Shown here: one piece after another, positions 1-9,120 of the stretch
Numbering within the stretch: position 1 is the stretch's first letter
Layout: the number at the start of each line of letters is the position of its first letter
Source: a virus
Lineage: Duplodnaviria > Heunggongvirae > Uroviricota > Caudoviricetes
Virus record (IMG/VR): IMGVR_UViG_2703719389_000008
Reading direction: 5' to 3' (one strand)
DNA: 9,301 nt
Notes under the pieces: model-generated
What the model saw: the letters and a program-made list of their open reading frames with translations, nothing else
Told to the model about the DNA's origin: nothing
Database searches by the model: none
Made by a program: the position numbers and the translations under genes

Positions 1-537
1 TTACGCATGCTTTTCGGTTCCGGCTCCACCAGTACCCGGGTATTGTGGAATACCAAAAAAAAAAATTGCGCCGGTACCATAACCACCAGCCCGAGTGTCA
101 ATCATCCATGCTGACAGGTTTTGATGAGCAAGTTGCCCGAGTGATTCGGATGTCTGGTCACGCAGCTGGTTGTCGCAGTGCCAGCACAACACCATTGCGC
201 CGGTACCATAACGGTGAATGACGGTTTCGCTGTGATGATAATCGCCGTGTGGCCACTGGCAGGATTTAATATGGCACAACAGCCAGTCAGACAATGCACC
301 AGCACCACCAGCAGCACGAATTACCCGTGCGTTACTGAAAAACGGCAGCAATGTTTTGTCTTCCACCAGCGGCTGGCGAACGGCAGGAACGACCCCGGAC
401 GGCAGATTACGCATGCTTTTCGGTTCCGGCTCCACCAGTACCCGGGTATTGTGGAATACCGGCATGGATTCACGGCCCGGCTTAACGACCACCATCCCGA
501 GTTCCGGTACCAGAACAGGTCGAAGTAATACCCGCAC
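1..537 (-). CDS. Hypothetical prophage protein (178 aa) with a Cys/His cluster resembling an HNH/NinG-like zinc-binding nuclease motif; 3' end is mosaic
   Basis: GTG start at 537 preceded by GGAGGT Shine-Dalgarno 4 nt upstream, immediately after the stop of the upstream 92-aa gene (translational coupling). Motif CHIKSC-x7-DYHH-x15-LCWHCDNQ. Last 54 nt (1..54) duplicate 407..460 in another frame, followed by an A11 run (55..65). TAA stop at 1..3. Confidence 0.45.
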   Translation of the reverse strand: MRVLLRPVLVPELGMVVVKPGRESMPVFHNTRVLVEPEPKSMRNLPSGVVPAVRQPLVEDKTLLPFFSNARVIRAAGGAGALSDWLLCHIKSCQWPHGDYHHSETVIHRYGTGAMVLCWHCDNQLRDQTSESLGQLAHQNLSAWMIDTRAGGYGTGAIFFFGIPQYPGTGGAGTEKHA

Positions 538-2046: not shown

Positions 2047-2202
2047 TTACTCCTCAGGTTCGTAAGCTGTGAAGACAGCGACCTCCGTCTGGCCGGTTCG
2101 GATTCGTACCTCGCAGAGGTCTTTCCTCGTTACCAGTGTCGTCACTATGACGGTTAAACAGATGACGATCAGGACGATTAACATCGCCTTTTGCTGCTTC
2201 AT
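2047..2202 (-). CDS. hokD: Hok/Gef-family small membrane toxin (51 aa)
   Basis: Translation MKQQKAMLIVLIVICLTVIVTTLVTRKDLCEVRIRTGQTEVAVFTAYEPEE: Hok-family hydrophobic helix plus conserved RKxLCE and AYE motifs, close to my recollection of HokD/RelF. AAGGAG RBS 9 nt upstream of ATG 2202. The in-frame upstream ATG at 2259 is treated as leader. Confidence 0.85.
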   Translation of the reverse strand: MKQQKAMLIVLIVICLTVIVTTLVTRKDLCEVRIRTGQTEVAVFTAYEPEE

Positions 2203-2479
2203 AGCCTGCTTCTCCTTGCCTTTCGGCACGTAAGAGGCTAACCTAGATTTGCCGTTCATAGATTGAGCCTCAGATTAATGTTAAGCGTCTTGCAGGACGC
2301 GTAATGTTAACTGGGGCTTTTCTCTATCTGCCTTTGGTGTTCATGCCTGAGACAGATAGCCTCAAGCACCCGCAGCCATTCTACTTAACTCCCGTCACCT
2401 CGCCAATATGAAATCAATCAGAAAGGCGAACCATAAGAGCAATAGCAAGACAATAAGGCCCGCATGGTCGTACAAAGAC

Positions 2480-5278
2480 TCAGGCACCGTGACATTTTTT
2501 GTACTTTATTCCCGAGCCACAGGGGCATTGTTCATTCCGGCCGACCGCACCAAAAACTTCAGTTAATTTAGTCTTTGCTGCTTTATGGGCAAGCTGTACG
2601 ATGTAATTTGATTGATTTTGGATTTCTTGACGCTGTACACCTGTGAGGCCTTCGATATAGGGAGCAAGGCGCTGCATTTCGACATCAGCTGCTTTATGCT
2701 GACCCGATAGTGCTAATATGACTGCGTATTGGCTTCGAACCTGAATCAGTCGATGTACTAGACCTGCCTCATTGACAACCGGCAGGACATGTTGCTCCAT
2801 GACTTCCTTGGCACCGTCGTAATCCTTTATGGCAACAAACTCATCCGCCAGATCTTGGCCCACCCTGACCATGGATTCCGGGGCCATGGCCAGATTGTAG
2901 AACTTCATCGAATGAATACGCAGTAATGGTGACAGTTTTCCCTGCGCATCACGAATTCTGGCCAGCAACTCCAGAGCATCAGCCATATGTTTAAAGTGTT
3001 CCTGCATATTTTCGGAATGATTAATAGTTTTCCATAATGCGTCGGCGTTTTTTCCTATGACATCAGCAGGTGTGATACCAAATAAAGAATAGTACCCTTG
3101 TATAACATTACAGCTTAATGTTTCAGCATCCTTGAGTTTTTTTAATCTCCAGAGTGCAATGGCATGGTTGTAGTCAAAGATGCGTTTATGTTCTTCATCT
3201 GGGAGTTGGGGGCGGACTTCCTGTGCCAGCTTTTGAACTTCTCGTGCATCATTGCTTTCTGCCGAAAATAACATTCGTTTCATTGCATAGGCCATCTCTT
3301 CTTGATAGCCGAACTTGTGCTCCGCAAGTAAAGCTCCCATGATGTTTAACCTCTGAGCAATGTGGTCGGATATTCCGTCTTTAAGCTCAACGAAAACAAG
3401 GCCATCCAATGCCCAGAATTTATGAACAGGTCCCAATAAGTCCGATGTTGCAGCACGCTCCAAGCTTGCAAGAATGTCGACCGTCACGCCCATCTCATAA
3501 AACATTTCTTGGCCTGAGAGTTCGATCAACGTCGTGACATCATTGAGCTTAATATAAAGTTGAGTCAACAACGATAACCGTTTTGTATTGCGGGTATTAT
3601 GAAGACTTTCAACTAAAAGGTCTTTCAGCGCTAGTAGCGCTTTGTTCGATATACCCTGATCCATCAGTTCCAGATGTTGCAGTCCTAGCCCCCTGACAGC
3701 ATCATGTACCTTCAGGGTCTGGTTTCCATAAATTTCAATAGTGCCAGTAGCGCGCATTTTCCTAATTAAAGAAGCAGCACTGCTTGGTGAAATGTTCAGC
3801 GAATTGATTAGGAGCGTAGAAATCTCTTCGCGACTCAGCCCTACGTCAGAGAGACTGAACAATGCCAGCGCGCTCTGAAGTAGTGATTCAAATCCCTGAA
3901 ATACACGTGACAGAATAATTTCTTGGGCGGTTTCCGCAGTATGGGTTTGTTGCTGGAGTTCAGCACACAGAGCATCGACATTACGCTCATAATCAGAAAC
4001 GGCGATTTTTGCGGCGCTCTCTACATACAGGGGAAGACCACCAGTGTAAGCCCGTAGCTGCTCGTATCCCATAGCGGTGGCAAATCCTCCGATATCGTTT
4101 ACAACGACAGCTACCGTATCGAGATTCCATCCCTGCAGGCCCTCGCGCTGTAGCCCCGTCATGACCTCCAGTTCGCGAACGTTTTCGTGAGGCTGGCACA
4201 ACAGCACAAAACGAATATGTGTAGTTGCATTCAGAACATCCAGTAGATTTTCCGCAGGTACACGATGGGCGTTATCCAGAACCAGCACCAAGGTGGTACC
4301 CTGCTCTTTCAGGTAGGTATCAAAACTCCTAAGAGCCTCAAAACCACTGGCACCGGGGAGCAAAATCCTGCGCAAACCGTCTTGGTCACGGGCTGTAAAT
4401 CTAGCAGCCATCTCGCGCACCAGCGTACTGGCCAGAGCTGGACCGGGAAGATCACCGGTGTCGTAATAAGCACAAAGTGCAGTGGAGTGTAATGCGGCCT
4501 GTGCGGCCCAAGCTGTCTTGCCTGCACCTGAGAGTCCACAAAGGATACGGATCCGCTCACCAGATGTGAGAGAAGGTTCTTCGTTCTGTGGGCGGTACAG
4601 TGCTGGTGGTGCAGGAAAGTCCTGTAGCTGAACGATCAACTGTTCAAATAGTTCAGTAAGTTCTTCCGTGAAAAACGTATGTTGTCCATTGGTATCGCCT
4701 CCGGTGGCGGCAAGCTGAACCAATCCTGCTAACTTCCAAATCAAGGATTCTGGGGACAATAGTGAAAATTTCAGCTTTTCTGCTTCTGCGATACACCATG
4801 TGGCCGCATCAGCCAGAGTACTCCATGCGGGCGGAAGTGCCGGGTGACGTCCAGCTGTCGACTGGGGCCAGACAATAAGAACATCAGAAGGAAGCTTTTT
4901 ATCGTCAATCATCTTCTGAAGCAGCGGTCCAGGCGCCTGGTTTACAATAATCACAAAAGAAGCCACCCCTTCGCGGTTTGCCGAAGTATGCTCATTTCTG
5001 AGCTTTACAAATCGCTCCAGAGCCCCCGACACATCGTTGGGCATAATAGGTTTTGAACGGGTTTTAACCTGAATGTAGAGACGTTCCTGTTTGGATTTCA
5101 GCTCAATATCCTCATCAAGCTCGACAGTTACTGAGTCCATAGCTGCCCTCTGCGCCAAAAGTAAGCAGCCTACAGCGTAAAGATGCTGGTAAAGGAACCC
5201 CCGGTGTACCGCTTCGATACGCACCAACTGCACAGGATCCAGTACGTCCAGATTTTGTTTGTTTTCACTTCCCCACAT
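2480..5278 (-). CDS. Large multidomain protein (932 aa): PD-(D/E)xK-like nuclease motif, STAND (NB-ARC-like) P-loop NTPase, TPR-like helical repeats, C-terminal SEC-C zinc ribbon; candidate NLR-like antiviral sensor
   Basis: Uninterrupted 2.8-kb ORF with AAGGAA RBS 6 nt upstream of ATG 5278. Walker A GLSGAGKT (nt 4514..4537, verified by translation), Walker B LVLVLDN (4271..4291, verified), GGLPL (about 4028..4042), VHD (aa 524-526), N-terminal D57...Q70-V-K72 (about 5063..5122), C-terminal CPCGSGIKYKKCH (2489..2527). Confidence 0.85.
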   Translation of the reverse strand: MWGSENKQNLDVLDPVQLVRIEAVHRGFLYQHLYAVGCLLLAQRAAMDSVTVELDEDIELKSKQERLYIQVKTRSKPIMPNDVSGALERFVKLRNEHTSANREGVASFVIIVNQAPGPLLQKMIDDKKLPSDVLIVWPQSTAGRHPALPPAWSTLADAATWCIAEAEKLKFSLLSPESLIWKLAGLVQLAATGGDTNGQHTFFTEELTELFEQLIVQLQDFPAPPALYRPQNEEPSLTSGERIRILCGLSGAGKTAWAAQAALHSTALCAYYDTGDLPGPALASTLVREMAARFTARDQDGLRRILLPGASGFEALRSFDTYLKEQGTTLVLVLDNAHRVPAENLLDVLNATTHIRFVLLCQPHENVRELEVMTGLQREGLQGWNLDTVAVVVNDIGGFATAMGYEQLRAYTGGLPLYVESAAKIAVSDYERNVDALCAELQQQTHTAETAQEIILSRVFQGFESLLQSALALFSLSDVGLSREEISTLLINSLNISPSSAASLIRKMRATGTIEIYGNQTLKVHDAVRGLGLQHLELMDQGISNKALLALKDLLVESLHNTRNTKRLSLLTQLYIKLNDVTTLIELSGQEMFYEMGVTVDILASLERAATSDLLGPVHKFWALDGLVFVELKDGISDHIAQRLNIMGALLAEHKFGYQEEMAYAMKRMLFSAESNDAREVQKLAQEVRPQLPDEEHKRIFDYNHAIALWRLKKLKDAETLSCNVIQGYYSLFGITPADVIGKNADALWKTINHSENMQEHFKHMADALELLARIRDAQGKLSPLLRIHSMKFYNLAMAPESMVRVGQDLADEFVAIKDYDGAKEVMEQHVLPVVNEAGLVHRLIQVRSQYAVILALSGQHKAADVEMQRLAPYIEGLTGVQRQEIQNQSNYIVQLAHKAAKTKLTEVFGAVGRNEQCPCGSGIKYKKCHGA

Positions 5279-7110: not shown

Positions 7111-7536
7111 TCAATGTACTGCCACAGCATTTCCTGCCGGGCCACCACGGTTCATCTGATTGAAACCGGCGATTGCCACTGCGACAAAATCATCAGCGTC
7201 TCTCACCAGTCGCTCCCGCGTCTCCACCAACTCCCGAAAATAAGCTGAACTGTGGCTGCGCATTCTGGCCACCAGCAAAGGTGGCATTGCCTTTTCGATC
7301 GCTGGTAACAACGCCTGAATTTTTTCAACTGCATCAGGGGTGTCTTTCTCTACCCAGCGGAAAATTTTCTGGGTATTGCGAGCCAGGGCTTCCGGATGGC
7401 TGTCGTCATACAGTTCAGGAAACGTCATACCCAACTCAAAATAAGCCTGGGTTATTCCAGCTGCTGGAACTTTTTCGCCATCAGGACGCGCCCAGGCATT
7501 CATCGCCATGCGGATGTGTTCATGCTTGATTTTCAT
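7111..7536 (-). CDS. ydaT: YdaT-family protein (141 aa), CII-like position in the early-right operon
   Basis: N-terminus MKIKHEHI... characteristic of the Rac YdaT family; start overlaps the ydaS stop by 17 nt. Confidence 0.8.
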   Translation of the reverse strand: MKIKHEHIRMAMNAWARPDGEKVPAAGITQAYFELGMTFPELYDDSHPEALARNTQKIFRWVEKDTPDAVEKIQALLPAIEKAMPPLLVARMRSHSSAYFRELVETRERLVRDADDFVAVAIAGFNQMNRGGPAGNAVAVH

Positions 7537-7826: not shown

Positions 7827-7895
7827 AGAATACCCACAGGTAAACAAAAGTCAATACCCTTGGGTTGTTTACCTTGCGGTAATCGCATCTATTAT
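7827..7895. promoter_or_regulatory. Divergent immunity promoters with operator repeats
   Basis: Minus strand: -35 TTGACT (7849..7854) and -10 TATTCT (7827..7832), 16-bp spacer, driving ydaS. Plus strand: -35 TTGTTT (7865..7870) and -10 TATTAT (7890..7895) ending 6 nt before ATG 7902. 10-bp inverted repeat AGGTAAACAA (7838..7847) / TTGTTTACCT (7865..7874), third GTAAACA at 7815..7821, plus TACCC-N2-GGGT(A/T) half-palindromes at 7831..7842 and 7855..7866. Confidence 0.5.
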
Positions 7896-7901
7896 TTACC
7901 T

Positions 7902-8321
7902 ATGGACAAATATGAATTTAGACGACAACAACTCATCAAAATTCGTGATGAGAAATGCGATGGTAAAGCGGTTAACGTGGCCAGAAAGATCGGTCGCGAG
8001 CCTTCTTATGTATCAAGAATGTTGTACCCAGAGGGGAAAAAAGGAAAAAAACGGATCGCTGATGATATGGTGGAGATTATAGAAGAGTCCTTTGGGTTAC
8101 CCCGGGGATGGATGGATGGTATCGTTTCATCATCAACGAACACAGCCTCCAATTATGAAACAAGGGTTCTAACGCCACGACAACGTATTTTTTTAGATCT
8201 CTTAGACGAACTGCCAGAAAGTGAAGCGGATAACTTATTAAAAACTCTTGAAGAGAAAAAACAGTATTACAATATGATCTACGAAGAAATCCGTAAAAAG
8301 AAAGCACAAAACGCATCATAA
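7902..8321 (+). CDS. CI-like prophage repressor (RacR/DicA-type HTH protein, 139 aa)
   Basis: HTH segment GKAVNVARKIGREPSYVSRML and C-terminal LDLLDELPESEADNLL, similar in layout to DicA/RacR-type repressors. No Shine-Dalgarno before ATG 7902 and a -10 just upstream, consistent with a leaderless cI-like transcript. The track's TTG start at 7860 is rejected. Confidence 0.7.
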   Translation: MDKYEFRRQQLIKIRDEKCDGKAVNVARKIGREPSYVSRMLYPEGKKGKKRIADDMVEIIEESFGLPRGWMDGIVSSSTNTASNYETRVLTPRQRIFLDLLDELPESEADNLLKTLEEKKQYYNMIYEEIRKKKAQNAS

Positions 8322-8363
8322 CTCACCAAACAACCAGTCACCAGTTAAGACACATCAAAAAAT

Positions 8364-8403
8364 TACCCATGGGTATTTACTTTTTGGATACCCATGGGTA
8401 TCC
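8364..8403. promoter_or_regulatory. Pair of perfect palindromes upstream of ydfA, candidate operator
   Basis: TACCCATGGGTA at 8364..8375 and GGATACCCATGGGTATCC at 8386..8403, centres 25 bp apart. Confidence 0.4.
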
Positions 8404-8586
8404 TTCCTTTCATACCAACCCACCCCACCCCACAGAATGCAGGGCAATACTTCGAGTTACCAGGCAGTGGTCAGGGGTTAAGTAGCCAGCCCGAGGCGTA
8501 AGAACATGACGGCAGGGTTCAACTTTAATAACTATGCAGCAGGTTTTTGTTCCGCTACCCCGGCGTTAAGGGGAAATGAGGTCAAC

Positions 8587-8742
8587 ATGGATACTATCGA
8601 TCTTGGCAACAACGAATCTCTGGTGTACGGCGTGTTTCCCAACCAGGACGGTACGTTCACCGCGATGACGTATACCAAAAGCAAAACGTTTAAAACCGAA
8701 AATGGTGCCCGTCGCTGGCTGGAAAGAAACTCAGGTGAGTGA
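8587..8742 (+). CDS. ydfA: YdfA-like small protein (51 aa)
   Basis: Translation MDTIDLGNNESLVYGVFPNQDGTFTAMTYTKSKTFKTENGARRWLERNSGE matches K-12 Qin YdfA in length (51 aa); sequence agreement is from memory. GAGGT RBS before ATG 8587; the track's 8506 start is an upstream in-frame extension. Confidence 0.75.
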   Translation: MDTIDLGNNESLVYGVFPNQDGTFTAMTYTKSKTFKTENGARRWLERNSGE

Positions 8743-8743
8743 T

Positions 8744-8872
8744 ATGGATTTCGACACAATCATGGAAAAGGCTTACGAAGAATACTTCGAAGGTCTTGCC
8801 GAAGGCGAAGAAGCTCTCAGCTTCAACGAATTTAAACAGGCGCTTTCCAGTTCGGCAAAATCTAACGGCTGA
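8744..8872 (+). CDS. ydfB: YdfB-like small protein (42 aa)
   Basis: Translation MDFDTIMEKAYEEYFEGLAEGEEALSFNEFKQALSSSAKSNG. ATG 8744 lies 1 nt after the ydfA stop with AGGTGAG RBS. Below the ORF-track size cutoff. Matches YdfB in size and position. Confidence 0.7.
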   Translation: MDFDTIMEKAYEEYFEGLAEGEEALSFNEFKQALSSSAKSNG

Positions 8873-8901
8873 TAAGCGAAACAGCACCGCGAGGAATCAG
8901 T

Positions 8902-9120
8902 ATGCAGAAACGAGAACCCGTCATCATCGCGCCAGACTATACCGATGATGAACTTTATGAGTGGATGCACCAGAAAATTAATGCAGCGCAGGATCTGAAA
9001 TGGGCCAATGAAGCCAGAGCTAAGCAGGCTGAAAATCTGTCCGCTCTGGAGCAGGATATCACCAATCTGGAAAAAGCAGCGGCATTAAGCATTGCCAGAA
9101 TGATTACATACCCGCGTTAG
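8902..9120 (+). CDS. ydfC: YdfC-like protein (72 aa)
   Basis: GAGGAA RBS before ATG 8902; size and position after ydfA/ydfB match Qin ydfC. Confidence 0.75.
   Translation: MQKREPVIIAPDYTDDELYEWMHQKINAAQDLKWANEARAKQAENLSALEQDITNLEKAAALSIARMITYPR

What the first reader, a model, noticed from the sequence alone, without database searches (positions are those of the whole stretch)
8364..8403. Two perfect palindromes upstream of ydfABC sharing a motif with the immunity region
TACCCATGGGTA (8364..8375) and GGATACCCATGGGTATCC (8386..8403) are exact palindromes 25 bp apart in the 265-bp interval before ydfA. Degenerate versions of the same motif occur at 7831..7842 and 7855..7866. In Qin the dicB-operon promoter downstream of dicA is repressor-controlled, so these are candidate operators by which the immunity repressor silences ydfABC.
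Basis: partly seen in the sequence, partly recalled or inferred. Interest (0 to 1): 0.45.

Follow-up and report, generated by a model that had tools for sequence, protein, structure and literature searches.

The report
Prophage early-left operators and promoter
The two palindromes are most likely the repressor-binding sites (OL1 and OL2) that bracket the early-left promoter of a lambda-like E. coli prophage and keep ydfABC-dicB switched off; this is a textbook arrangement, seen here for a repressor type whose binding motif seems not to have been described.

Summary
TACCCATGGGTA occurs exactly at 8364-8375 and 8389-8400. The second copy extends to an 18-bp palindrome (8386-8403).

The context is a lambda-like immunity region. 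A cro-like and a cII-like gene run leftward. A 139-aa repressor gene (7902-8321) runs rightward, followed by the palindromes and then ydfA-ydfB-ydfC (then dicB, exo and int in an identical prophage).

The palindromes bracket a promoter-like site: OL2, then TTTACT, 7 bp, then OL1, whose last two bases start TATCCT. The window's PR has the same layout.

Evidence:
- Relatives of the repressor's DNA-binding domain in 23 loci from many genera carry TACC-N4-GGTA at the same positions. It is the top dyad of 2304 tested.
- 19 of 26 loci have a downstream pair 25-26 bp apart with the same promoter layout.
- In phage mEp043 this pair aligns in register with lambda OL1/OL2 and PL.
- Prophages with other repressors share sequence only from 8411 onward.

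Binding itself is inferred, not shown. The RNA hairpin could also terminate repressor transcripts, but relatives do not support that. Verdict: a new member of a known kind, of low to moderate interest.

The parts
8364..8375 (.). OL2: promoter-distal operator, TACCCATGGGTA, directly upstream of the -35 hexamer. It spans about -48 to -37 from the predicted start.
   Evidence: Exact palindrome. The equivalent site is conserved 25-26 bp upstream of OL1 in 19 of 26 related loci. It aligns with lambda OL2 through mEp043.
8389..8400 (.). OL1: promoter-proximal operator, TACCCATGGGTA, in the spacer and overlapping the first two bases of the -10 hexamer (about -23 to -12). In this window only, it extends to the 18-bp palindrome 8386-8403.
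   Evidence: The flanks GGA/TCC vary among E. coli alleles. It aligns with lambda OL1 through mEp043.
8376..8404 (+). Predicted PL promoter: -35 TTTACT (8376-8381), 17-bp spacer, -10 TATCCT (8399-8404). The predicted start is A8412.
   Evidence: It matches 8 of 12 consensus positions and is joint best in the interval. In relatives, the hexamer after OL2 is TTGnnn or TTTAnT, and the hexamer starting at the last TA of OL1 is TAnnnT in 19 of 19. It is in register with lambda PL -35/-10, and identity to lambda begins at CATCAGCAGG. The start site has not been mapped.
8412..8586 (+). Predicted 5' leader of the early-left operon. It is shared with prophages of other immunity types and is C-rich at its 5' end.
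   Evidence: Homology with phages of other immunity types starts at window 8408-8412.
7902..8321 (+). Immunity repressor gene (139 aa). The N-terminal helix-turn-helix domain is of the mEp043-cI type. The C-terminal helical domain is DicA-like. There is no S24 peptidase domain.
7831..7842 (.). OR1: TACCCACAGGTA, overlapping the -10 of PR.
   Evidence: A site at -71 to -75 from the repressor ATG is present in 17 of 23 related loci.
7855..7866 (.). OR2: TACCCTTGGGTT, abutting the PR -35. It is centred about -41.5 from the predicted PRM start.
7870..7881 (.). OR3: TACCTTGCGGTA, whose left half forms the PRM -35 hexamer TTTACC.
   Evidence: The 15-bp OR2-OR3 spacing is conserved across genera.
7827..7854 (-). 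PR-like promoter for the cro-like gene: -35 TTGACT (7854-7849), 16 bp, -10 TATTCT (7832-7827).
   Evidence: 9 of 12. The layout operator, -35, 6 bp, operator, -10 is the same as at PL.
7868..7895 (+). PRM-like promoter: -35 TTTACC, 16 bp, -10 TATTAT. It ends 6 nt before the repressor ATG (7902), which implies a leaderless mRNA.
   Evidence: The -10-like TAgAAT 6-7 nt before the ATG is conserved in relatives. There is a precedent in PaaR2 and lambda cI (PMC8630535).
7520..7801 (-). Cro-like gene (YdaS family helix-turn-helix).
   Evidence: Homologues accompany the repressor domain in 18 of 23 related loci.
7111..7536 (-). cII-like gene (YdaT family).
8587..9120 (+). ydfA (8587-8742), ydfB (8744-8872) and ydfC (8902-9120): the first genes of the operon served by PL.

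Best explanation
The two palindromes are the left operators, OL2 (8364-8375) and OL1 (8389-8400), of a lambda-like prophage. They bracket and overlap its early-left promoter PL: -35 TTTACT at 8376-8381, -10 TATCCT at 8399-8404, predicted start A8412.

Dimers of the 139-aa repressor encoded just upstream (7902-8321) are inferred to bind the dyad TACCYnnRGGTA through an N-terminal helix-turn-helix domain. They probably bind cooperatively, because the sites are 25 bp apart, close to the spacing of lambda OL1 and OL2. Bound repressor would block RNA polymerase. That would silence the operon ydfA-ydfB-ydfC, which in an identical prophage continues to dicB, exo and int.

The same protein would bind OR1-OR3 (7831, 7855, 7870) to shut off the cro-like gene and to regulate its own leaderless transcript. 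The cro-like protein probably uses the same sites.

Shown here: the sequence features, their positions, and their conservation with the repressor domain. Inferred: binding, cooperativity, repression and the transcription start.
For: 1. Position. The gene order is cII-like, cro-like (both leftward), OR, repressor (rightward), palindromes, ydfABC. In the 100% identical prophage it continues with dicB, exo and int.

2. Shared motif between the OL and OR regions.

3. PL and PR are inverted copies of one layout. PR reads [AACCCAAGGGTA]TTGACT-6 bp-[TACCTGTGGGTA]TTCT. PL reads [TACCCATGGGTA]TTTACT-7 bp-[TACCCATGGGTA]TCCT.

4. From repressor to motif. 23 loci were chosen only because they encode a relative of the repressor (39-82% identity in the N-domain). 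They come from Yersinia, Edwardsiella, Klebsiella, Brenneria, Aeromonas, Paraburkholderia, Stenotrophomonas and others. TACCCnnGGGTA with at most 1 mismatch is present in 21 of 23, and lies at -71 to -75 from the ATG in 17. TACC-N4-GGTA ranks first of 2304 possible dyads: 63 hits against a mean of 2.3, sd 3.0.

5. 19 of 26 loci have a downstream pair 25-26 bp apart. A -35-like hexamer abuts the first site, and a TAnnnT hexamer starts at the last TA of the second in 19 of 19.

6. From motif to repressor. Of 19 viral contigs carrying the exact pair, 17 encode the repressor domain.

7. In the cultured lambda-like phage mEp043, whose cI has 76% identity in this domain, the pair aligns in register with the annotated lambda OL1, OL2 and PL. 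It sits just upstream of lambda-identical nutL and N.

8. Relatives of other immunity types (Tritos, vB_EcoS-689R5, K-12 Qin) keep the downstream operon. Upstream of window 8408-8412 they carry their own repeats, which match their own OR.

9. Klebsiella loci lack a detectable homologue of the window's cro-like gene, yet keep the motif beside the repressor gene. In one of them, L013, no divergent cro-like ORF is evident.

10. Longer homologues carry a Peptidase_S24/LexA C-domain, so they are genuine cI-type repressors. The predicted N-domain is a helix-turn-helix of the XRE type.

11. Experimental precedents exist for the same architecture: Qin DicA at dicBp (PMC10448788) and CP-933P PaaR2/YdaS at PL933P (PMC8630535).
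Against: No binding, repression or start-site data exist for this immunity type, and I found no paper containing the motif.

The promoter matches only 8 of 12 consensus positions and was not called by the standard scan. A second 8-of-12 candidate lies downstream, at 8409/8433.

OL has two sites, whereas lambda has three.

The two identical palindromes also make a strong RNA hairpin followed by a T-rich stretch, so part of their conservation in this lineage could serve termination.
Confidence: 0.85

Rival explanations
1. The palindromes act mainly, or additionally, as an intrinsic terminator. Transcribed from the repressor promoter, the two copies pair into a 16-bp hairpin followed by UCCUUCCUUUC. 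This would stop read-through from the repressor gene into the toxic ydfABC-dicB operon.
For: The terminator scan flags both the 16-pair and the 7-pair stems. RNA 8322-8425 folds to -25.4 kcal/mol, z = -4.5, and none of 200 shuffles folds as well. No other hairpin lies between the repressor stop (8321) and the palindromes. By contrast, vB_EcoS-689R5 and mEp043 each have a separate canonical terminator there.
Against: Any two identical palindromes must pair, so the hairpin is an automatic by-product. The tail has no run of more than three U. In relatives the sequence after OL1 is the -10 region and the transcript start, with only 4-5 T in 8 nt in most loci. Complementarity between OL2 and OL1 across 21 pairs is no higher than the motif composition predicts: 57 of 84 against 53.4, permutation p about 0.13. 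The common E. coli allele already breaks perfect pairing.
Confidence: 0.2
2. The sites are bound mainly by the cro-like (YdaS-family) protein, not by the 139-aa protein.
For: A cro-like homologue accompanies the motif in 18 of 23 related loci. In lambda and in CP-933P, the Cro-type proteins bind the same operators as the repressor (PMC8630535).
Against: This complements the main explanation rather than replacing it. Five Klebsiella loci keep the motif next to the repressor gene with no detectable homologue of the window's cro-like gene. The N-domain of the repressor is far more conserved than the rest of the module: 10 invariant and 14 nearly invariant columns, all within residues 1-72.
Confidence: 0.1
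3. The palindromes are chance or generic features with no regulatory role. Examples would be a widely dispersed repeat, restriction-site clusters (CCATGG) or recombination scars at a mosaic junction.
For: They lie immediately next to a mosaic junction at 8411. One of the 19 viral contigs with the pattern is an unrelated tandem array.
Against: Statistics on the window argue against chance. The 49-bp block occurs about once per genome that has it, and only on chromosomes. Half-sites, spacing and promoter layout are conserved across three proteobacterial classes, while flanks and central bases vary.
Confidence: 0.03

Closest known systems
Bacteriophage lambda OL1/OL2 and the PL promoter
   Same: The position is the same: distal to the repressor gene, at the head of the early-left operon. 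The dyad operators share a consensus with OR. One operator overlaps the -10 and spacer, and one lies just upstream of the -35, about 24-25 bp apart. The inverted PL/PR arrangement flanks the repressor gene. The repressor mRNA is leaderless. OR2 is centred near -42 of PRM. In mEp043 the homologous pair aligns base for base in register with lambda OL1, OL2 and PL.
   Different: The operator sequence is different (TACCYnnRGGTA, against the lambda 17-mer). OL has two sites rather than three. OR2 and OR3 are only 15 bp apart. The repressor has an unrelated N-domain sequence and no S24 autocleavage domain. The downstream operon begins with ydfABC rather than N and nutL.
Qin cryptic prophage DicA/DicC with dicBp (E. 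coli K-12)
   Same: The downstream operon is the same (ydfA-ydfB-ydfC-dicF-dicB). The repressor is short and non-cleavable, with a homologous C-terminal domain. An operator lies between the -35 and -10 of the operon promoter. DicA repression of dicBp is shown experimentally (PMC10448788).
   Different: The DNA-binding domain and operators differ: Qin has TTAGTCATGGCTAA-type sites, and none of the TACC-N4-GGTA motif was found in the K-12 locus. Identity to DicA is 33% over the last 46 aa only. The K-12 leader is about 100 nt shorter.
CP-933P / Sp12 PaaR2-YdaS-YdaT immunity region with PL933P (E. coli O157:H7)
   Same: It has a YdaS-type Cro analogue and a YdaT-type cII analogue. The repressor mRNA is leaderless. 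OL operators resembling the OR operators lie at a PL that both PaaR2 and YdaS repress about 100-fold (PMC8630535).
   Different: The repressor and the operator consensus differ (18-bp palindromes built on GTTTAGTAA). A toxin-antitoxin pair lies downstream of that repressor.
Phage mEp043 cI and its OL/OR (cultured lambda-like phage)
   Same: It shares the DNA-binding domain (76% identity over residues 1-72). It shares the operator motif and the OR and OL architecture.
   Different: mEp043 cI is 228 aa long. This is the long form that, in related proteins, carries a Peptidase_S24 C-domain; I did not scan mEp043 cI itself. Its PL drives a lambda-type nutL-N operon. I found no published operator analysis.
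Rep repressor of Salmonella phage SPC32H (PDB 5D50, Rep-Ant complex)
   Same: It is the best structural match to the predicted repressor (Foldseek E about 1e-3). It is a short repressor with a helix-turn-helix N-domain. The entry title shows that it is solved in complex with an antirepressor.
   Different: Sequence identity is only 16-23%, and the resemblance rests on a predicted model. No antirepressor was looked for here.

Membership tests
Lambda-like left operator/promoter region (OL/PL) | It lies beyond the repressor gene, on the side away from cro, at the head of the early operon transcribed away from the immunity region. | tested here: met
   Gene order in the window and in the identical prophage L001.
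Lambda-like left operator/promoter region (OL/PL) | It has repeated dyad-symmetric sites that share a consensus with the sites between the repressor and cro genes. | tested here: met
   Two exact copies at OL and three degenerate copies at OR.
Lambda-like left operator/promoter region (OL/PL) | The sites overlap the -35/-10 elements of a sigma-70 promoter that drives the operon. | tested here: inconclusive
   The hexamers match 8 of 12 with a 17-bp spacer. The layout is conserved in 19 loci and is in register with lambda PL. The start site is not mapped, and the standard scan did not call it.
Lambda-like left operator/promoter region (OL/PL) | The sites are specific to the immunity type. They travel with the repressor's DNA-binding domain and are replaced in heteroimmune relatives. 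| tested here: met
Lambda-like left operator/promoter region (OL/PL) | The repressor binds the sites and represses the promoter. | not testable with these tools
   This needs EMSA or footprinting and reporter assays.
Qin DicA-dicBp system | The repressor is a DicA orthologue that recognises DicA-type operators. | tested here: not met
   Only the C-terminal 46 aa align, at 33% identity. K-12 operators differ, and the TACC-N4-GGTA motif is absent from the K-12 locus.
Qin DicA-dicBp system | The controlled operon is ydfABC-dicF-dicB. | tested here: met
   ydfA, ydfB and ydfC are in the window. dicB follows in the identical prophage L001. dicF is annotated in the related phage Tritos.
Intrinsic (Rho-independent) terminator | It has a stable G+C-rich stem-loop immediately followed by a run of U. 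| tested here: inconclusive
   The stem is 16 bp at -25.4 kcal/mol but has only 6 G-C pairs. The tail UCCUUCCUUUC has no U run longer than 3.
Intrinsic (Rho-independent) terminator | The stem is maintained by compensatory change in relatives. | tested here: not met
   Inter-operator complementarity is not above the composition control. T-richness after OL1 is not conserved.
LexA/S24-type autocleavable cI repressors (mEp043 cI type) | The N-terminal DNA-binding domain is homologous. | tested here: met
   Identity over residues 1-75 is 76% to mEp043 cI and 57-85% to LexA-family proteins.
LexA/S24-type autocleavable cI repressors (mEp043 cI type) | It has a C-terminal Peptidase_S24 domain. | tested here: not met
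   No Pfam hit. The C-terminus aligns with the DicA/Tritos-type helical domain instead.

The most novel reading that the evidence does not exclude
The two identical operators could do double duty. As DNA they bind repressor at PL. As RNA, transcribed from the repressor promoter, they would pair into a 16-bp hairpin that terminates read-through into the cell-division-inhibitor operon. This would replace the separate terminator that heteroimmune relatives carry. The lineage-specific change to two perfect palindromes, one extended to 18 bp, would then be selected rather than accidental. A second reading is also not excluded: this TACC-N4-GGTA immunity specificity may be shared by prophages from alpha-, beta- and gamma-proteobacteria, which would predict cross-immunity among them, for example with mEp043.
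Probability: 0.2. Interest if true: 0.4.

Novelty: new member of a known kind. Interest (0 to 1): 0.25.

Why it matters
The repressor gene is present in 822 of 5426 complete E. coli genomes, among them O157:H7, O55:H7 and O111 strains. In every record listed it is annotated only as a hypothetical protein, and it has no Pfam domain.

Assigning it a binding motif (TACCYnnRGGTA) and a map of OR1-3, OL1-2, PR, PRM and PL makes this switch annotatable and testable. [quoted passage not shown]

The work also gives a clear example of modular exchange in lambda-like phages. The junction between the immunity module and the early-left operon falls at the predicted transcription start, both here and between mEp043 and lambda. 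The repressor is itself a hybrid of a cI-type DNA-binding domain and a DicA-type C-terminal domain.

None of this changes the established picture of lambda-like regulation.

Tried and rejected
- Standard promoter scan. It did not call the PL candidate, which scores 8 of 12 against a threshold of 9. I kept the candidate because of the comparative evidence and the alignment with lambda.
- Pfam on the repressor gave no hit. Sequence search against solved structures gave only insignificant hits to ADAR Z-alpha domains, which I dismissed.
- Rfam on the whole window found only sok. Nothing was found in the leader or at the palindromes.
- Literature searches for the motif string and for the repressor accession found nothing. 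Papers mentioning mEp043 do not analyse its operators. One search failed on a term that was too short.
- Hairpin-selection test. The apparently compensatory changes in strain A19 (OL2 CACA, OL1 TGTG) looked like support for an RNA stem. The permutation control over 21 pairs shows no excess over motif composition, and TACCCACAGGTA is a common variant in the family. I therefore rejected this as evidence.
- A possible fourth site, 7897-7908 (TACCTATGGACA), overlaps the repressor start codon. It is not conserved outside E. coli and I did not count it.
- The three TACCCGGGTA 10-mers at 33, 439 and 1501 have the same half-sites without the two central bases. They lie in duplicated coding sequence and I judged them coincidental.
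- Alignment of the loci selected by the pattern cannot show conservation of the palindromes, because they were chosen for having them. I used it only for the flanks and replaced it with loci selected by the repressor gene.
- The 49-nt megablast count of 92 genomes is a lower bound, because the method needs a 28-nt exact word.

Full report
**1. The observation**

The sequence reads AAAAAT-TACCCATGGGTA-TTTACTTTTTGGA-TACCCATGGGTA-TCCTTCC over 8358-8407. TACCCATGGGTA is an exact palindrome at 8364-8375 and at 8389-8400. The second copy is embedded in the exact 18-bp palindrome 8386-8403.

A 13-nt exact direct repeat lies at 25-bp spacing. An exact palindrome of 18 bp or more is expected 0.027 times per shuffled window. 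Matches to the 12-mer with up to 3 mismatches number 9, against 2.8 expected, and no shuffle out of 200 reached 9. All four matches with 2 or fewer mismatches are at 7831, 7855, 8364 and 8389.

**2. Context**

A 100% identical stretch lies in a prophage of E. coli Z1323HEC0108, integrated next to a tRNA-Ser gene. The order there is:
- leftward: Q, rusA, DUF968, hokD, SEC-C protein, replication gene, YdaT-family (cII-like) gene, a transcriptional regulator that matches the YdaS (Cro-like) family in Pfam
- rightward: a 139-aa "hypothetical protein", ydfA, ydfB, ydfC, dicB, ydfD-like, exonuclease, integrase

This is the lambda layout. The 139-aa gene (window 7902-8321) sits in the cI position, and the palindromes sit in the OL/PL position.

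PHROGs calls the 139-aa protein a transcriptional regulator and the neighbours a repressor and a cII-like activator. Pfam has no model for the 139-aa protein.

**3. The promoter**

The scan finds two divergent promoter-like sites between the repressor and cro-like genes.
- PR, minus strand: TTGACT (7854-7849), 16 bp, TATTCT (7832-7827).
- PRM, plus strand: TTTACC (7868-7873), 16 bp, TATTAT (7890-7895). It ends 6 nt before the repressor ATG at 7902, which implies a leaderless mRNA, as for lambda cI and PaaR2 (PMC8630535).

Read on its own strand, PR is [AACCCAAGGGTA]TTGACT-TTTGTT-[TACCTGTGGGTA]TTCT. The finding region is [TACCCATGGGTA]TTTACT-TTTTGGA-[TACCCATGGGTA]TCCT. The layout is identical: an operator, a -35 hexamer abutting it, 6-7 bp, and an operator whose last TA begins the -10 hexamer. 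The repeat finder reports the two regions as inverted repeats of each other (I1 and I2).

The PL candidate is TTTACT, 17 bp, TATCCT. It matches 8 of 12 positions, one short of the scan threshold, and is joint best in the interval.

**4. Does the motif follow the repressor?**

A scan of one genome per species found 23 loci encoding relatives of the repressor. The similarity is confined mostly to the first 75 residues or so, at 39-82% identity. The loci come from Yersinia, Arsenophonus, Edwardsiella, Klebsiella, Brenneria, Leclercia, Aeromonas, Paraburkholderia, Herbaspirillum, Alcaligenes, Stenotrophomonas and several metagenome-assembled genomes.

These loci were chosen on protein similarity alone. 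Results:
- 21 of 23 carry TACCCnnGGGTA with at most 1 mismatch, and 17 have one at -71 to -75 from the ATG. The window's 7831 site is at -71.
- The whole intergenic architecture is conserved: TTTACCnnnnGGTAAA (OR1), about 8 bp, GTCAA-TACCnnnnGGTT (OR2), ATT, TACCnnnnGGTAA (OR3, which supplies the PRM -35), a TAgAAT-like -10, and 6-7 nt to the ATG.
- An unbiased count of all 2304 dyads of 4-nt half-sites with gaps of 0-8 puts TACC-N4-GGTA first. It has 63 hits in 22 of 23 loci, against a mean of 2.3 and sd of 3.0.
- Downstream of the repressor gene, 19 of 26 loci (including the window, mEp043 and CharmingMan) have a pair 25-26 bp apart. The hexamer after the first site is TTGnnn, TTTAnT or TAGACA. 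The hexamer starting at the last TA of the second site is TAnnnT in 19 of 19. The final T lies outside the operator, so it is evidence for a -10 element.

In the reverse direction, the exact pair occurs in 19 viral contigs, and 17 of them encode the repressor domain. One exception is an unrelated tandem array. In the other, the pair lies near the end of the stored stretch.

**5. Anchoring to lambda**

The cultured lambda-like phage mEp043 has a cI with 76% identity to the window's N-domain. Its OR has the same architecture. After a canonical terminator, its OL pair (TACCTATAGGTA and TACCTGTAGGTA) precedes the N gene.

Aligned with lambda, the mEp043 pair falls in register with the annotated lambda OL2 and OL1, and TAGACA aligns with the lambda -35 TTGACA. 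Near-perfect identity begins at CATCAGCAGGACGCAC and runs through nutL. From established knowledge of lambda, that point is -1/+1 of the PL transcript.

By the same register, the window's start is predicted at A8412, 7 nt after TATCCT.

**6. Heteroimmune relatives**

Phages Tritos and vB_EcoS-689R5, and K-12 Qin, carry the same ydfABC operon behind different repressors. Their similarity to the window begins only at 8408-8412, which is at the predicted start site.

Upstream of that point each has its own repeats, and these match its own OR:
- Tritos: GTACT/AGTAC-type sites.
- 689R5: TAAATACTTTTAGATTTA-type sites.
- Qin: TTAGTCATGGCTAA between TTGACC and TAATCT.

So the palindromes belong to the immunity module, as operators should. 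For Qin, repression of dicBp by DicA is experimentally shown, and operators at both promoters are described (PMC10448788). For CP-933P, PL933P is repressed about 100-fold by PaaR2 and by YdaS (PMC8630535).

**7. The repressor**

Homologues fall into two forms. Both share a highly conserved N-domain, with 10 invariant and 14 nearly invariant columns, all within residues 1-72.
- Short proteins like the window's have a C-terminus like that of the Tritos cI (72% identity in the tblastn) and of DicA (33% over 46 aa).
- Proteins of 220-242 aa have a Peptidase_S24 (LexA-family) C-domain.

The window protein is therefore a hybrid: a cI-type DNA-binding domain joined to a DicA-type, non-cleavable C-domain.

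The AlphaFold model has mean pLDDT 84.7. It shows a four-helix N-domain with a helix-turn-helix (helices 23-30 and 34-40), a disordered linker (77-87) and a C-terminal helical hairpin. The best structural match is the Rep repressor of a Salmonella phage solved in complex with its antirepressor (5D50), followed by XRE-family helix-turn-helix proteins.

Five Klebsiella loci keep the motif beside the repressor gene but lack a detectable homologue of the window's cro-like gene. In one of them, L013, no divergent cro-like ORF is evident. This favours the repressor as the primary reader of the motif.

**8. Distribution and variation in E. coli**

The repressor gene is in 822 of 5426 complete genomes, usually once per genome. 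It is annotated as hypothetical in all 14 records listed.

In five genomes chosen by the gene alone, the half-sites, the -35 TTTACT and a -10 of the form TATYCT (TATCCT in four, TATTCT in strain H3) are conserved. The central four bases and the flanks vary. The common allele is AAA-TACCTATGGGTA-TCC for OL1. Strain A19 (91% identity) has TACCCACAGGTA and TACCTGTGGGTA, with a strongly diverged upstream flank.

The perfect 18-bp palindrome is therefore specific to this lineage. The 49-bp block occurs once, rarely twice, per genome that has it, and only on chromosomes.

**9. The terminator rival**

RNA 8322-8425 folds into a 16-bp hairpin between the two copies (-25.4 kcal/mol, z = -4.5), followed by UCCUUCCUUUC. 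No other terminator lies between the repressor stop and PL.

Against this:
- Two identical palindromes must pair, so the hairpin is an automatic by-product.
- The U-tract is poor.
- Relatives do not keep T-richness after OL1.
- Complementarity between the two operators is no greater than motif composition predicts: 57 of 84 against 53.4, p about 0.13.

I keep this as a possible secondary role in this lineage, at about 0.2.

**10. Mechanism (inferred)**

Repressor dimers occupy OL1 (about -23 to -12) and OL2 (about -48 to -37). They are likely cooperative at the 25-bp spacing, and they exclude RNA polymerase from PL.

At OR, sites 1 and 2 would shut PR. OR2 is centred at about -41.5 from the PRM start, which would allow activation of PRM as in lambda. 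OR3 overlaps the PRM -35, which would allow negative autoregulation.

Loss of repressor would release ydfABC-dicF-dicB-exo-int. The repressor lacks an S24 domain, so an antirepressor might cause this, as Rem does for DicA (PMC10448788).

**11. Verdict**

The feature is a standard OL/PL region of a lambda-like prophage, for an immunity type whose operator motif I could not find described in the literature I could search. It is a new member of a known kind, of low to moderate interest.

Noticed in passing
window 8408-8412; L047 about 4140; L049: The junction between the immunity module and the early-left operon falls at the predicted -1/+1 of PL. This holds between this prophage and heteroimmune ydfABC prophages, and between mEp043 and lambda, where identity starts at CATCAGCAGG. 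Modular exchange appears to occur exactly at the transcription start.
   Followed up: partly
window 8412-8586: A predicted 5' leader of about 175 nt before ydfA is conserved among heteroimmune prophages. It begins with a C-rich, G-poor run (CCAACCCACCCCACCCCACAG), which could be a Rho-loading site. K-12 Qin lacks most of it. An in-frame upstream ATG at 8506 is used by some annotations, giving a 78-aa YdfA. There was no Rfam hit.
   Followed up: partly
window 7912-8082 and A-runs near 8034-8055; proteins P0009, P0013, P0016, P0019: Some E. coli alleles of the repressor are called from the alternative-frame ATG at 7912 (MNLDDNNSSKF...). They rejoin the main frame near the GGGGAAAAAAGGAAAAAAA runs. 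These are frameshifted alleles that lose the helix-turn-helix, which suggests the repressor is inactivated in some cryptic copies.
   Followed up: no
window 166-465 vs 1228-1527; 1-54 = 407-460 = 1469-1522: A direct duplication of about 1062 bp (99% identity) lies in the DUF968-like gene region, with a 54-nt segment present three times. The identical-immunity prophage L001 has a single 1056-bp DUF968 gene at this position.
   Followed up: partly
window 33-42, 439-448, 1501-1510: There are three copies of the 10-bp palindrome TACCCGGGTA. It has the operator half-sites without the two central bases and lies inside the duplicated coding sequence. It is probably coincidental.
   Followed up: no
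window 2047-2371 (-): A hok/sok type I toxin-antitoxin locus: an Rfam sok hit at 2197-2371 (110 bits) and a HokD-like ORF at 2047-2259.
   Followed up: partly
window 2480-5278 (-): A 932-aa protein has an N-terminal Cap4-nuclease-like segment, an AAA ATPase domain and a C-terminal SEC-C motif, plus a weak PADLOC LmuA hit (E = 5e-7). It is a possible anti-phage defence gene carried as prophage cargo.
   Followed up: partly
L008, L010, L012-L014 (Klebsiella): LexA-family repressors with the same DNA-binding domain and the same motif (a site at about -73 and a downstream pair) lack a detectable homologue of the window's cro-like gene. In L013 no divergent cro-like ORF is evident. They may be stand-alone regulators or remnants of prophages.
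   Followed up: partly
L028 2637-2722: An unrelated G+C-rich viral contig has a tandem array of five TACCCA(T/C)(G/A)GGTA units separated by runs of C. It matched the search pattern by chance, and the stored stretch encodes no repressor homologue.
   Followed up: partly
L047 4049-4078 (mEp043): Upstream of the mEp043 OL2 lies a wider dyad, TTACCTG-N10-CAGGTAA, with the same half-sites but a longer gap. It could be a third, atypical operator or just a hairpin. The window has no counterpart.
   Followed up: no
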